From NCBI RefSeq assembly GCF_053078305.1, contig NZ_CP166879.1: a stretch of DNA of 64,000 nt; one strand, written 5' to 3'. Within the stretch, counting starts at the first letter, position 1. Each line of letters begins with the position of its first letter. The position numbers are program-made. Below, one piece after another: positions 1 through 3,000 of the stretch.

Positions 1-3000
1 GAAAAGGATTTTCTCTTTTATGCCAACAACGGCAGCGAGGAGGAAAAAATCGAGGTGTTCGGCTGCGTCCCCATGTTGTCGGACGTGGTGAACATCAGCG
101 CAGGTGAAGCCGGAAAGACCACGAAAAAAATCAAGTTCATGGTCACAAGCCCGGACTTTATCAGCATTGACGGCGTGCCCTACCTGTCAGCCCGTGACAC
201 CCGCGATCTGAAGGGGTGATGCCATGCCGGACGGTCAGACTTCACTCCTGGCAAAACTGATTATCATCGGTGCTGCCATCGGGCTGGGGCGTCTCATGGT
301 GAGCCGCGATCGCATCACAGCCCGTCTGCTTATCGGGCGAATGATTATGGGCTCTGCCGTGGCACCGGTTGCCGCCATTCCGCTGTTTAAATTTCCGGAC
401 ATGCCGGAGCTGGTAGTGGTCGGTCTGGCGTGCGCGCTGGGCATTATGGGCAGCGCCTTTATTGAAGAATGCTTTTGCCGTCTGGCAGACCGCTACCTGA
501 AGCAGAAGGAACGCAGAAATGACCCATAAGCCTTACATTTCGCCTTCCCTGAGCCTGTATCACGCGCAGGCGCATGACGTTCTGCGGATGCTGCCGGAAA
601 ACAGTGTGGACGCGCTCATCACAGACCCGCCATACAGTTCAGGTGCCACACACAAGGCGGGGCGGACATGCCAGGGCAGCCACGCCAAATACATCAACGA
701 TGAAGATCTTCACCGCTTTGAAGGCTTCGAAGGCGAGAACATGGACGCCCGTTCATGGGAATACTGGACGCATCTGTGGATGACACAGGCATGGCGCACG
801 GTACGACCCGGTGGTTACGCCCTGGTCTTCACCGACTGGCGGCAGTTGCCCGCGCTGACGGACGCATTCCAGGCCGCCGGTTTTACCTGGCGGGGGATCG
901 TGGCATGGAACAAGGGACGGGCCTCAAGAACACCGCATACCGGTTATTTTCGTCACCAGTGCGAATATGTGGTCTGGGGCAGTAAAGGCGCGCTGGGCAA
1001 ATCCCCTTCCGGGCCGTTCGACGGCTGCATCACGCACCACACACGCCCACAGGAGAAACAGCACCCGACAGGTAAACCGGAATCGTTGATGGATGAGCTT
1101 GTGCGCGTGTGTGAACCCGGAGGGCTGATCCTCGATCCGTTTATGGGGTCCGGCACCACGGGCGTGGCCGCCCTTCGCCGGGGCTGCCGTTTTACGGGTA
1201 TTGAACTGAACGCCCACTATTTCAGCGTGGCACAGGCGCGCCTTACGGGGACGGAACAGAGGAGTGACTGATGAAACTGAGCGAAAAACAACAACTGTTT
1301 GCCGTCATGATTGCCGATCTCATCCACTGGGCACAGGAGCACGGCTATCGCCTGACCTTCGGCGAGGCATACCGCACGCCGGAGCAGGCCGCACTGAATG
1401 CGAAAAGCGGAAAAGGCATTCGTAACAGCCTTCACACGCTGCGCCTCGCGGTGGACTTCAACCTGTTCATTAACGGCAAATACCAGGCCGACACCGACGC
1501 CTACAGGCCGCTGGGGGAATACTGGGAATCCATCGGCGGCACATGGGGCGGGCGCTTCAGCCGGGCAGACGGCAATCATTTCAGCCTTGAGCACAACGGG
1601 GTGAAATGATGAAACAGCTGGCGGGCTGCCTGGTGATCCTCTTTGCCGCCATGTGGGCGGGCTGGCTGGCCCATGACTGGCATGACGCCAGGGTGGCGCT
1701 TGCCGAACAGGAAGCCATGGAAGCCACGCGACGGGCGGTGACAGAAGCCGGGCAGCAGTCCGCCCGCATACTGGAAAAAAGGCTGGAGGCGTTAAAGGGC
1801 AATGAAATTCACACTGAACGCGTTATTCACACGGAAACCGTCCGCCCGGTATTCCGCAATGTGTGCGCTACTGATGATTACGTCCGGCTGTTCAACGCCC
1901 GTGCTGAAGCCGCTGAACGTACCCTGGCAGGAAAACCAGCTGACGGAATGCCCGAAGACACTGCCGAGACTGGCAGGCCCGACAGGCGCTGATTTTGATG
2001 CGGCACTGCGAACCCTCACGAGCCGCTACACCGAATGCGCCGCCAGGCATAACAGCCTGGTGGAAACCATACGAAACACGGAGAAACTGCAATGACCACG
2101 AAGAGCACCGGCACCATCACCCTGACCGTCGCGGGCGTAACCCTGACCTTTGAGCCGAACAAGACGGCATTTAACAACCTCATCAACGAAATCACGATGA
2201 CCAACAAGATAGCGCCAATGACCACCTATCTTAACCGTATCGTGACCGCTGACTGCCGGGATGCACTGGCCGACCTCATGGATCGTTACCCCGGCTGCGA
2301 GATGCAGATCGCCGAGAAGATTAACGAGGTTTACTCCCCGAAACTGGAGATTGAGTTAAAAAACTGACCGCGCGGGTCGAAAGCATCCGCCGCAATCCCC
2401 TTGAGCAGTATCTGGCATTGCGGCGTCACTACCTCCCCGGAGAGCCGGACGACGAAGAGAGCATCGCCCGTGCCATCTGGCTGGATGAATATTTTGCCCG
2501 TACCCGCGCCAACAAGACCGCTGAAGGTATAGCGATCGCATTTAACGGAAGGTGACATGGCCAGCCAGCTGGATTTCATTATCAATCTGACAGACCAGCT
2601 TACCCGCCCGCTGCGGCAGGTTCAGGAATCCGTGACGGGATTCGCCGAACGCTCGCAGGGCGCGTTCGCGCGTATCGGTGTGGGTGTGGCCGGACTGTGG
2701 GGCGTGGCCGAAGGTATCCGCGCCGCGATGGATCCGGCGTGGGAGATGCAGAAGGCGCTGGGCGAGCTTGAGGCCAAAGGCGTAGGATCGCAGGCGCTGA
2801 CCGCCCTCACCACGCAGGCCATGAAACTGGGGACCGCATTCGGTCAGTCTTCCACGGAGATCATCCGTTCCGCATGGCATATTCGCGGCGCACTGGACGG
2901 GCTGAGCGACGGGGATTTACCCCGTGTGACGGCAGCAACCAGTACCCTGGCCGTGGCTGCCCGCGTCAGCAGCGAAGAGGCGAGCGGCTACCTTGCCGCC

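What the first reader, a model, noticed from the sequence alone, without database searches (positions are those of the whole stretch)
1606..2095. Overlapped two-component spanin architecture
The Rz1-like lipoprotein ORF starts inside the Rz-like gene in the +1 frame (ATG 1859, lipobox MITSGC) and runs 103 nt past the Rz stop. This is the overlapped rather than embedded spanin arrangement and supports the lysis cassette being functional.
Basis: partly seen in the sequence, partly recalled or inferred. Interest (0 to 1): 0.2.

Follow-up and report, generated by a model that had tools for sequence, protein, structure and literature searches.

The report
Overlapping spanin gene pair, prophage

Summary
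The sequence facts are correct. An Rz-like gene lies at 1606-1992. A +1-frame ORF contains ATG 1859 and MITSGC, stops at 2095, and runs 103 nt past the Rz stop.

The interpretation, an overlapped two-component spanin, is supported:
- The i-spanin matches PHROG 1152 (E 5.5e-31) and has one N-terminal transmembrane segment.
- The o-spanin matches phrog_2425 and phrog_456. It is 48% identical in its mature part to the o-spanin of Cronobacter phage ESSI-2, which SpaninDB lists as "overlapped".
- Three cysteines (lipobox Cys30, Cys50, Cys79) are conserved across about 150 sequence clusters.
- The 103-nt tail shows purifying selection in the o-spanin frame.

One correction: the start is probably ATG 1802, not 1859. 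That gives a 97-aa product and a 191-nt overlap.
- Relatives SI7, ESSI-2 and ev015 lack the internal Met and keep the upstream ATG.
- Only the long form passes the PROSITE lipoprotein rule.
- SpaninDB curators chose the homologous long start for ESSI-2.

RefSeq E. coli annotations omit this gene, and two phage records start it after the lipobox.

Verdict: a new member of a known kind, of low interest. Function was not tested experimentally.

The parts
224..529 (+). Holin (101 aa) with three hydrophobic segments; first gene of the lysis cassette.
   Evidence: Pfam PF04550 E 1.2e-19; phrog_175 holin E 5.7e-31; hydropathy windows.
519..1271 (+). DNA methyltransferase (250 aa) inserted between holin and endolysin. 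Not a lysis gene. Overlaps the holin by 11 nt and the endolysin by 1 nt.
   Evidence: PF01555 N6_N4_Mtase E 1.2e-27; phrog_67 E 3.4e-70. Absent from the cassettes of YenM324, SI7, ev015 and E. coli 2011C-4251.
1271..1609 (+). Endolysin, M15 family metallopeptidase (112 aa).
   Evidence: PF13539 Peptidase_M15_4 E 3.4e-10; phrog_1768 and phrog_465 endolysin; RefSeq name 'M15 family metallopeptidase'.
1606..1992 (+). i-spanin (Rz-like, 128 aa). Its ATG overlaps the endolysin stop (ATGA).
   Evidence: phrog_1152 'Rz-like spanin' E 5.5e-31 over residues 3-112; tblastn hits in 415 phage records, many annotated i-spanin; 39% identity to the periplasmic part of the ESSI-2 i-spanin.
1618..1674 (+). N-terminal transmembrane segment of the i-spanin (residues about 5-23, LAGCLVILFAAMWAGWLAH).
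   Evidence: Kyte-Doolittle 19-residue mean of 1.81, the only window at or above 1.6; lies within AF2 helix 2-69.
1864..1866 (+). Cys87, the only periplasmic cysteine of the i-spanin; invariant in 7 homologues.
   Evidence: Alignment A3, invariant column C87.
1948..1992 (+). Clade-specific C-terminal extension of the i-spanin (about 15 aa, GMPEDTAETGRPDRR). It lengthens the overlap from about 140 nt to 191 nt.
   Evidence: Absent in YenM324, ESSI-2, ev015 and ECBP2; pLDDT below 50 for residues 118-128; polymorphic R127G; the PHROG profile ends at residue 112.
1785..1789 (+). GGAGG Shine-Dalgarno-like motif, 12 nt upstream of ATG 1802.
   Evidence: Read from the sequence. The same GGAGG lies 9 nt upstream of the ESSI-2 and ev015 starts, and SpaninDB lists it as the SD of the ESSI-2 o-spanin.
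1802..2095 (+). o-spanin (Rz1/LysC-like lipoprotein precursor, 97 aa) in the +1 frame of the i-spanin; preferred start ATG 1802.
   Evidence: phrog_2425 E 2.2e-22 and phrog_456 'Rz-like spanin' E 1.5e-5. Upstream ATG conserved in SI7, Ec 2011C-4251, ESSI-2 and ev015. Passes PS51257 with Cys30. AF2 mean pLDDT 84.7.
1859..1861 (+).
   Evidence: No SD-like motif upstream. This Met is absent in SI7 (Thr), ESSI-2 (Ala) and ev015 (Ile). The short form fails PS51257. An NCBI gene call of 78 aa does use it.
1874..1891 (+). MITSGC: lipobox T-S-G-C, with the lipid-modified Cys30 at 1889-1891. The next residue (+2) is Ser, which is compatible with outer-membrane sorting.
   Evidence: Sequence. Cys30 is present in 109 of 114 family representatives that cover this column, and +2 is never Asp. 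ITSG|C has a precedent in SpaninDB (CR44b).
1802..1992 (+). Dual-coding overlap of 191 nt (134 nt if the start is 1859).
1993..2095 (+). 103-nt o-spanin-only tail, encoding most of the C-terminal helix. Its TGA stop overlaps the ATG of the tail chaperone gene (ATGA at 2092-2095).
   Evidence: Both polymorphisms here are synonymous in the o-spanin frame. In distant pairs pS is 0.72-1.0 against pN 0.33-0.53. AF2 helix 62-96.
1949..1951 (+). Conserved periplasmic Cys50 of the o-spanin.
   Evidence: 137 of 145 family representatives.
2036..2038 (+). Conserved periplasmic Cys79 of the o-spanin, in the motif Y..CAARHN.L.
   Evidence: 145 of 145 family representatives; invariant in A1, A2 and A4.

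Best explanation
Window 1606-2095 encodes a two-component spanin in the overlapped arrangement. It is the last unit of the lysis cassette (holin, inserted DNA methyltransferase, M15 endolysin, i-spanin/o-spanin) of an HP1/ESSI-2-like (Peduoviridae) prophage of E. coli, and the cassette sits inside the late tail operon.

The i-spanin (1606-1992, 128 aa) is anchored in the inner membrane by one N-terminal transmembrane helix and extends helical segments into the periplasm.

The o-spanin is translated in the +1 frame, most likely from ATG 1802 (97 aa). Its 29-residue signal peptide has a basic n-region (K2, R11, K12, R16), the h-region YSAMCALLMITSG and the lipobox TSG|C. Inferred steps: it is exported by Sec, lipid-modified on Cys30, cleaved by signal peptidase II and carried by Lol to the inner leaflet of the outer membrane (Ser at +2, no Asp retention signal).

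By analogy with lambda Rz/Rz1 and P2 LysB/LysC, also inferred: the two proteins bind through their periplasmic parts to form a bridge across the periplasm. This bridge is held in check by the peptidoglycan mesh. Once holin and endolysin have removed the mesh, the complexes fuse or disrupt the inner and outer membranes and release the progeny. The conserved cysteines (i-spanin C87; o-spanin C50 and C79) probably form the stabilising disulfides described for other spanins.

Shown here: ORF structure, homology, conservation, selection, membrane signals.
Inferred: lipidation, complex formation, membrane fusion, and activity of this particular prophage copy.

The confidence of 0.88 is for the overlapped two-component spanin reading; the sub-claim that the start is ATG 1802 carries about 0.75.
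For: Gene order and family matches.
- Holin PF04550 and phrog_175, M15 endolysin, and i-spanin phrog_1152 at E 5.5e-31.
- The o-spanin matches phrog_2425 (E 2.2e-22) and phrog_456 'Rz-like spanin' (E 1.5e-5).
- The same gene order is found in phages YenM324, SI7, ESSI-2 and ev015.
- The genes are tightly packed: ATGA overlaps at endolysin/i-spanin and at o-spanin/chaperone, and no promoter or + strand terminator in 1-2700.

i-spanin.
- One hydrophobic segment with KD 1.81.
- AF2 helices 2-69 and 90-108.
- Homologues in 415 phage records, including FelixO1 and phiEco32 spanins.

o-spanin.
- The long form passes PROSITE PS51257.
- Cys30, Cys50 and Cys79 are conserved in 109/114, 137/145 and 145/145 representatives, and the +2 residue is never Asp.
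- The mature part is 48% identical to the ESSI-2 o-spanin, which SpaninDB lists as overlapped, 99 aa, with SD GGAGG.
- 51 of 83 relatives hit Pfam LysC. hhalign against P2 LysC gives probability 79.6%.
- The top fold matches are O-spanins.

Selection.
- Both ORFs are intact in 10 near-identical copies, and both tail polymorphisms are synonymous in the o-spanin frame.
- In distant pairs the tail has pS 0.72-1.0 against pN 0.33-0.53.

Start at 1802.
- An ATG lies 28-30 codons before the lipobox Cys in window, Ec 2011C-4251, SI7, ESSI-2 and ev015; it follows an in-frame stop closely in all of these except ESSI-2, whose frame is open far upstream.
- The internal Met is missing in SI7, ESSI-2 and ev015.
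Against: - There is no experimental evidence for this copy.
- SignalP and LipoP were not available, so the lipoprotein call rests on a pattern rule and on homology.
- The lipobox has Thr at -3, so the strict consensus [LVI][ASTVI][GAS]C is not met.
- The window protein scores below the curated cut-offs of Pfam LysC and NCBIfam P2_Rz1 (19 bits against 27). The i-spanin has no Pfam or NCBIfam hit and no significant similarity to P2 LysB.
- The GGAGG lies 12 nt from ATG 1802, which is longer than optimal. Its conservation could also be a by-product of the conserved LEAL motif of the i-spanin.
- In YenM324 the homologous position is a GTG with a poor SD, so the start there is ambiguous.
- The i-spanin model is of low confidence (pLDDT 64.9).
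- The left half of the prophage lies outside the window, so its integrity cannot be judged.
Confidence: 0.88

Rival explanations
1. It is the same spanin pair, but the o-spanin starts at ATG 1859. That gives 78 aa, a 10-residue signal peptide MCALLMITSG and a 134-nt overlap.
For: ATG 1859 exists and is in frame. One NCBI gene call (P0001, 78 aa, 29 member sequences) uses it. The MC(A/V)LLM Met is also present in YenM324, and a Met at that position in E. coli 2011C-4251. The short segment is hydrophobic (mean KD 1.83).
Against: A 10-residue leader with no Lys or Arg fails PS51257 (Cys must lie at position 15-35, with K/R in the first seven residues). There is no SD-like motif upstream. The Met is replaced by Thr, Ala or Ile in SI7, ESSI-2 and ev015, which then have no usable start near it. 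Among plausible gene calls in the family the Cys sits at position 13-34, and calls with Cys at 11 or below look truncated. SpaninDB curators chose the long start for ESSI-2.
Confidence: 0.2
2. The +1-frame ORF is a chance open frame in GC-rich DNA, and 1993-2091 is merely an untranslated spacer between the i-spanin and the tail chaperone gene.
For: RefSeq (PGAP) annotates nothing there in the 8 E. coli genomes whose annotation was inspected. Long alternative-frame ORFs are common in this window. Openness alone has a probability of roughly 0.05 x 0.29.
Against: There is protein-level homology across genera and phage families. The lipobox and two further Cys are conserved. In the tail, synonymous differences are saturated while non-synonymous ones are restrained. 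The stop overlaps the next gene's start (ATGA). Kongari et al. report that overlapped o-spanins are routinely missed by gene callers.
Confidence: 0.01
3. The spanin genes are real, but the prophage is cryptic. The cassette is then a silent remnant, so intact spanin ORFs say nothing about functional lysis.
For: Only the tail and lysis half of the prophage is in the window. The right end abuts tandem hok/gef loci and serS. No induction data exist.
Against: All four lysis ORFs and the tail genes through 12399 are intact. There are nine near-identical copies, seven in complete E. coli genomes and two on IMG/VR viral contigs, one of 34 kb, and none has a disrupting mutation. Free phages with the same module exist (SI7, SW3, YenM324, ESSI-2).
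Confidence: 0.12
4. The 97-aa protein is secreted but not lipid-modified, because Thr at -3 makes a poor Lgt/LspA substrate. It would act as a soluble or signal-anchored periplasmic partner rather than an outer-membrane lipoprotein.
For: The strict lipobox consensus is not met.
Against: Most relatives have canonical L[ST][AG]C at the same column. TSGC, TTGC, TSAC and TVGC recur in the family. ITSG|C is accepted in SpaninDB. Kongari et al. showed that even AWAC works as a lipobox.
Confidence: 0.03

Closest known systems
Cronobacter phage ESSI-2 spanins (SpaninDB, Kongari et al. 2018, class 'ovl'), with the related Peduoviridae phages SI7/SW3, YenM324 and ESSI2_ev015
   Same: The cassette has the same position, between the tail tube gene and the tail chaperone gene. 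It has the same M15 endolysin and the same +1-frame overlapped pair. The mature o-spanin is 48% identical and the periplasmic i-spanin 39% identical. The three-Cys pattern in the o-spanin and the single Cys in the i-spanin are the same. The GGAGG lies upstream of a start 28-30 codons before the lipobox Cys.
   Different: The overlap is 191 nt here against 140 nt in ESSI-2, because this clade's i-spanin reads about 15 codons further. The lipobox is TSGC rather than LSAC. A DNA methyltransferase is inserted between holin and endolysin. i-spanin identity falls just under SpaninDB's 40% family threshold.
Phage P2 LysB/LysC, the experimentally studied overlapped spanin (Pfam PF23793 LysC; NCBIfam NF038368 P2_Rz1)
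   Same: The architecture is overlapped in the +1 frame (P2 lysB at 7922-8347 and lysC at 8202-8492 in the phage record). The o-spanin is of similar size (96 aa in P2, 97 aa here). The lipobox Cys and the two downstream Cys align. hhalign probability is 79.6%. 51 of 83 relatives of the window protein hit PF23793.
   Different: The window protein is below the curated cut-offs (19 bits against 27). The i-spanin shows no significant similarity to LysB (E 0.18). In P2 the cassette lies before the tail-completion genes R and S and includes lysA and a lysozyme-type endolysin K. Here it lies between the tube and chaperone genes (the HP1-like position) and has an M15 peptidase.
phiEco32/ECBP2-type and FelixO1-type overlapped spanins
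   Same: The i-spanin shares the motif KPVF.NVCA.D.(F/Y)V.LFN, and the o-spanin shares the motif Y..CAA.HN.L. These are also catalogued as 'ovl'.
   Different: They occur in lytic podo- and myophages. Identity is about 35% (o-spanin) and 29-40% (i-spanin). Their signal peptides are shorter (19 aa in ECBP2) and their overlaps shorter (116 and 107 nt).
Lambda Rz/Rz1, the prototype
   Same: The same functional logic applies: an inner-membrane protein with an N-terminal transmembrane segment, plus an outer-membrane lipoprotein encoded in its +1 frame at the end of the lysis cassette.
   Different: Lambda Rz1 is wholly embedded in Rz, is proline-rich and is predicted to be unstructured. Here the o-spanin extends past the i-spanin and has a confidently predicted 35-residue C-terminal helix. 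No sequence homology was detected.

Membership tests
Two-component spanin (Rz/Rz1 type) | i-spanin: small type II inner-membrane protein with a single N-terminal transmembrane segment and a largely helical periplasmic domain. | tested here: met
   One KD window at or above 1.6, at residues 4-23. AF2 helices 2-69 and 90-108, at low confidence. phrog_1152 E 5.5e-31.
Two-component spanin (Rz/Rz1 type) | o-spanin: outer-membrane lipoprotein signal, meaning a signal peptide ending in a lipobox Cys with no Asp at +2. | tested here: met
   The long form (ATG 1802) passes PROSITE PS51257 with Cys30, and +2 is Ser. The Cys is conserved in 109 of 114 relatives. Caveats: the strict [LVI][ASTVI][GAS]C consensus is not met (Thr at -3); the short form (ATG 1859) fails; SignalP and LipoP were not run.
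Two-component spanin (Rz/Rz1 type) | The genes are adjacent to the holin and endolysin genes in a lysis cassette. | tested here: met
   Holin 224-529, endolysin 1271-1609, spanins 1606-2095.
Two-component spanin (Rz/Rz1 type) | At least one periplasmic cysteine in the pair (507 of 528 systems in SpaninDB). | tested here: met
   i-spanin C87; o-spanin C50 and C79; statistic.
Two-component spanin (Rz/Rz1 type) | Required for outer-membrane disruption; complements lambda Rz/Rz1 amber mutants. | not testable with these tools
   Needs a wet-lab complementation assay.
Overlapped architecture (Summer 2007 / Kongari 2018) | The o-spanin gene starts inside the i-spanin gene, out of frame, and extends beyond its stop. 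| tested here: met
   Start at 1802 (or 1859), which is before the Rz stop at 1992. The o-spanin stop at 2095 is 103 nt beyond it, in the +1 frame. Definition.
SpaninDB ESSI-2 o-spanin family | At least 40% identity over at least 40% of the periplasmic sequence. | tested here: met
   48% identity over 58 of 68 mature residues.
SpaninDB ESSI-2 i-spanin (a singleton family) | At least 40% identity over at least 40% of the periplasmic sequence. | tested here: not met
   39% over 87 residues, just under the threshold, though homology is clear (E 1e-20).
Pfam PF23793 LysC / NCBIfam NF038368 P2_Rz1 | Score at or above the curated gathering cut-off (27 bits). | tested here: not met
   19.2 and 19 bits, E 0.0012. 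Distant homology is still likely: 51 of 83 relatives hit LysC, and hhalign against P2 LysC gives probability 79.6%, E 1.5e-5.
PHROG 1152 (Rz-like spanin) | Significant full-length profile match. | tested here: met
   E 5.5e-31, residues 3-112 aligned to profile positions 9-126 of 127.

The most novel reading that the evidence does not exclude
Both in-frame starts are used. ATG 1802 would give the exported lipoprotein. ATG 1859 would give a product with a leader too short for export. The result would be a dual-start pair that tunes spanin activity, in the manner of lambda S105/S107.

A related reading is that the clade-specific 15-aa i-spanin extension, created by loss of a stop codon inside the conserved o-spanin motif, captures overprinting in progress and alters the i-spanin/o-spanin interface.
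Probability: 0.06. Interest if true: 0.35.

Novelty: new member of a known kind. Interest (0 to 1): 0.12.

Why it matters
The biology is textbook. Overlapped spanins are the commonest two-component architecture (228 of 528 in SpaninDB), and this pair has catalogued relatives.

The practical value lies in annotation:
- The o-spanin is missing from the 8 RefSeq E. coli genomes inspected that carry this prophage or its SI7-like relative.
- The i-spanin is called 'hypothetical protein'.
- In two phage records the o-spanin is started downstream of its own lipobox.

Fixing the start at 1802 gives a protein with a credible outer-membrane lipoprotein signal, which completes a four-part lysis cassette for this prophage group.

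Tried and rejected
1. Megablast of 1-3000 against the phage collection found nothing. The relatives only appeared by tblastn and in E. coli genomes.

2. The word-indexed protein search with the 97-aa query returned only one cluster, because gene callers rarely call this ORF. The exhaustive HMM search was needed.

3. The search for related loci in viral contigs gave only two near-identical loci.

4. I considered that the helical C-terminal half of the +1 ORF (ADFDAALRTL...) might be the true C-terminus of a frameshifted Rz, from a sequencing error or a programmed shift. I rejected this for three reasons. The PHROG 1152 profile is covered to position 126 of 127 by the annotated Rz frame. The same two-frame layout holds in 10 near-identical copies and in five diverged phages and prophages. 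The helix carries the family-wide o-spanin motif Y..CAARHN.L, which lies downstream of the lipobox.

5. Direct BLASTP of the i-spanin against P2 LysB was not significant.

6. The fold search against BFVD gave O-spanins on top, but at E around 0.01 and 33% identity, so it adds nothing independent.

8. The Rfam scan of the repeat region 12300-14400 found nothing. The repeats turned out to be hok/gef loci.
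Full report
**What is in the sequence**

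Reading 1-3000 and listing ORFs confirms every coordinate in the finding.
- A 128-aa ORF starts at ATG 1606. This ATG overlaps the TGA of the preceding gene as ATGA. The ORF ends with TGA at 1990-1992.
- In the +1 frame (1606 mod 3 = 1; 1802 and 1859 mod 3 = 2) a second ORF is open from 1796, just after an in-frame TAA at 1793-1795.
- This second ORF has ATGs at 1802 and 1859 and reads ...AMCALLMITSGCSTP.... It stops at TGA 2093-2095, 103 nt past the first stop.
- Its stop overlaps the ATG (2092) of the next gene.

**Context**

The flanking genes were identified with Pfam and PHROGs.

| Coordinates | Gene | Evidence |
|---|---|---|
| ..219 | C-terminus of an HP1 Orf24-like tail protein | PF10772 |
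| 224-529 | holin | PF04550, phrog_175 |
| 519-1271 | N6/N4 DNA methyltransferase | PF01555, phrog_67 |
| 1271-1609 | M15 metallopeptidase endolysin | PF13539, phrog_1768 |
| 1606-2095 | the spanin pair | see below |
| 2092-2367 | tail assembly chaperone | PF10963 |
| 2557-4743 | tape measure protein |; RefSeq name in the homologous N51 locus, |

- Baseplate and fibre genes run to 12399.
- Two hok/gef loci follow, then serS, rarA, lolA, ftsK and trxB. The window is therefore an E. coli chromosome carrying a prophage next to serS.
- The 3-kb segment is 97.7-99.4% identical to 11 of 5,426 complete E. coli genomes. A 69%-identical version of the spanin region is in 18 more.
- The nearest free phages are Peduoviridae with the lysis cassette in the HP1-like position between the tail tube and chaperone genes: Salmonella SI7/SW3/SW5, Yersinia vB_YenM_324, Cronobacter ESSI-2 and Escherichia ESSI2_ev015.
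- No promoter-like site, and no terminator-like site on the coding strand, lies in 1-2700. The cassette is therefore read as part of the late tail operon.

**The i-spanin**

- The 1606-1992 product matches PHROG 1152 'Rz-like spanin' at E 5.5e-31 over residues 3-112, covering profile positions 9-126 of 127.
- It has homologues in 415 phage records, including FelixO1- and phiEco32-type phages where the pair is annotated i-spanin/o-spanin.
- It has a single hydrophobic segment, LAGCLVILFAAMWAGWLAH (KD 1.81).
- AF2 predicts helices 2-69 and 90-108 and a disordered tail, but confidence is low (pLDDT 64.9).
- The motif KPVF.NVCA.D.YV.LFN and the single periplasmic Cys87 are conserved.
- It has no Pfam hit and only a weak, below-cut-off NCBIfam hit, and is not detectably similar to P2 LysB.

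**The o-spanin is a real gene**

- The 97-aa translation matches phrog_2425 (E 2.2e-22) and phrog_456 'Rz-like spanin' (E 1.5e-5).
- It finds 127 phage records by tblastn.
- A profile of seven family members finds 152 clusters (50% identity level) among 1.84 billion representatives.
- In those clusters the lipobox Cys is present in 109 of the 114 that cover the column. Cys50 is present in 137 of 145 and Cys79 in 145 of 145.
- The residue after the lipobox Cys is Ser, Ala or Thr in 93 of 109 and never Asp.
- Among 10 near-identical copies both ORFs are intact. The two polymorphisms in the 103-nt tail are both third-position and synonymous in the o-spanin frame.
- Between diverged relatives the tail has saturated synonymous differences (pS 0.72-1.0) against pN 0.33-0.53. 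For window against SI7, dN/dS is about 0.58.
- Openness of the frame (about 0.047 x 0.29) and a PROSITE-type lipobox (9 of 629 ORF variants) would not be convincing alone. Homology and selection are.
- AF2 with an 83-sequence alignment gives pLDDT 84.7. It predicts a helix over the signal peptide (14-30), an extended Pro-containing linker, and a long C-terminal helix (62-96).
- The best BFVD matches are O-spanins, but weakly.

**Which start codon**

I favour ATG 1802, with a probability of about 0.75.

Evidence for 1802:
1. SI7, E. coli 2011C-4251, ESSI-2 and ev015 all have an ATG 28-30 codons before the lipobox Cys. In all of these except ESSI-2, whose frame is open far upstream, it lies one or two codons after an in-frame stop. 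Met20 of the window is Thr, Ala or Ile in SI7, ESSI-2 and ev015. In those phages the only later Met is 5 residues before the Cys.
2. The long form has a basic n-region (K2, R11, K12, R16), a 13-residue h-region and Cys30, and it passes PROSITE PS51257. The short form has Cys at position 11 and no Lys or Arg, and it fails.
3. A GGAGG lies 12 nt upstream of 1802, and 9 nt upstream in ESSI-2 and ev015. Nothing SD-like precedes 1859.
4. The SpaninDB curators list the ESSI-2 o-spanin as 99 aa starting at the homologous ATG with that GGAGG.
5. Long signal sequences and an ITSG|C lipobox have precedents among curated o-spanins (CR44b).

Evidence against 1802:
- The SD spacing is long, and the motif is embedded in the conserved LEAL motif of the i-spanin.
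- One NCBI gene call uses 1859.
- In YenM324 the homologous codon is a GTG with a poor SD.

Either way the arrangement is 'overlapped' by the published definition.

**Mechanism**

The steps shown here are the two membrane signals, the gene arrangement, the conservation and the homology to catalogued spanins.

The rest is inferred from lambda Rz/Rz1 and P2 LysB/LysC as summarised in PMC6139136:
- The o-spanin is exported by Sec, lipid-modified on Cys30, cleaved by LspA and delivered by Lol to the outer membrane.
- The i-spanin stays in the inner membrane.
- The two form a bridge across the periplasm, stabilised by disulfides.
- When the holin lets the M15 endolysin destroy the peptidoglycan, the complexes disrupt or fuse the two membranes.

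**Relation to known families**

- The mature o-spanin is 48% identical to that of ESSI-2, which meets SpaninDB's 40%/40% family rule.
- The periplasmic i-spanin is 39% identical, just below the rule.
- Against Pfam LysC and NCBIfam P2_Rz1 the window protein scores 19 bits against a cut-off of 27. It is therefore not a member by the curated test.
- Three results still make it a divergent relative of LysC. 51 of 83 of its relatives hit LysC. hhalign against P2 LysC gives probability 79.6%. The three cysteines align.
- P2 itself has the same overlapped layout.

**A small evolutionary point**

- The overlap is 191 nt in the window, SI7 and E. coli 2011C-4251.
- It is 140-143 nt in ESSI-2, ev015 and YenM324, and 116 nt in ECBP2.
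- The difference is a 15-residue C-terminal extension of the i-spanin. This extension is encoded in the alternative frame of the conserved o-spanin motif LPRL.G.TG.
- The extension is predicted to be disordered and is polymorphic (R127G).
- In YenM324 the i-spanin stop TAA spans the o-spanin codons ACT AAA (Thr-Lys). In the window these are ACG GAA (Thr-Glu), which removes the stop.

**Verdict**

This is a new member of a well-known kind, and its main use is to repair annotation.

Noticed in passing
window 2092-2555 (slippery heptamer at 2358-2364): The tail chaperone ORF ends ...GAG TTA AAA AAC TGA, which contains a canonical A_AAA_AAC -1 slippery heptamer. The -1 frame stays open to 2555. 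It contains the 45-aa ORF 2418-2555 that RefSeq annotates separately as 'DUF6890 family protein' with a TTG start. This is likely a G/GT (P2 E/E')-type programmed frameshift product rather than an independent gene.
   Followed up: partly
window 519-1271: An N6/N4 DNA methyltransferase gene is wedged between holin and endolysin, overlapping them by 11 nt and 1 nt. It is absent from the otherwise collinear cassettes of SI7, YenM324, ev015 and E. coli 2011C-4251. It looks like a moron placed so that it is co-expressed with the late and lysis genes.
   Followed up: partly
window 13102-13442 and 13822-14164: A direct repeat of about 340 nt at 94% identity, 720 nt apart, lies between the last prophage gene and serS. 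Each copy holds a 46-aa Hok/Gef-type ORF (13261-13401 and 13983-14123). The related strain N51 has three such loci, annotated 'Hok/Gef family protein'. There was no Rfam hit at gathering score.
   Followed up: partly
L002 (OM095401.1 17301-17489) and L005 (NC_049395.1 9830-10018): The annotated 'O-spanin' of Yersinia phage vB_YenM_324, and the corresponding CDS of Escherichia phage ESSI2_ev015, start downstream of the lipobox Cys (at MPPNVPYQ... and VRYQEN...). The deposited proteins therefore lack their signal peptide and lipidation site.
   Followed up: yes
L001 and L009-L015 (8 RefSeq E. coli genomes inspected): PGAP calls the i-spanin 'hypothetical protein' and leaves the roughly 100 nt of the o-spanin tail unannotated in every genome inspected.
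   Followed up: yes
protein P0052: A 140-aa gene call from the public collection joins an i-spanin N-terminus (transmembrane segment plus helix) in frame to an o-spanin from the lipobox onward. It is either a sequencing frameshift or a natural fusion of the two spanin genes.
   Followed up: no
window 17100-17714 (- strand): lolA encodes the periplasmic carrier that would deliver the o-spanin to the outer membrane. It lies about 15 kb from the spanin genes in the flanking chromosome. This is almost certainly coincidence.
   Followed up: no
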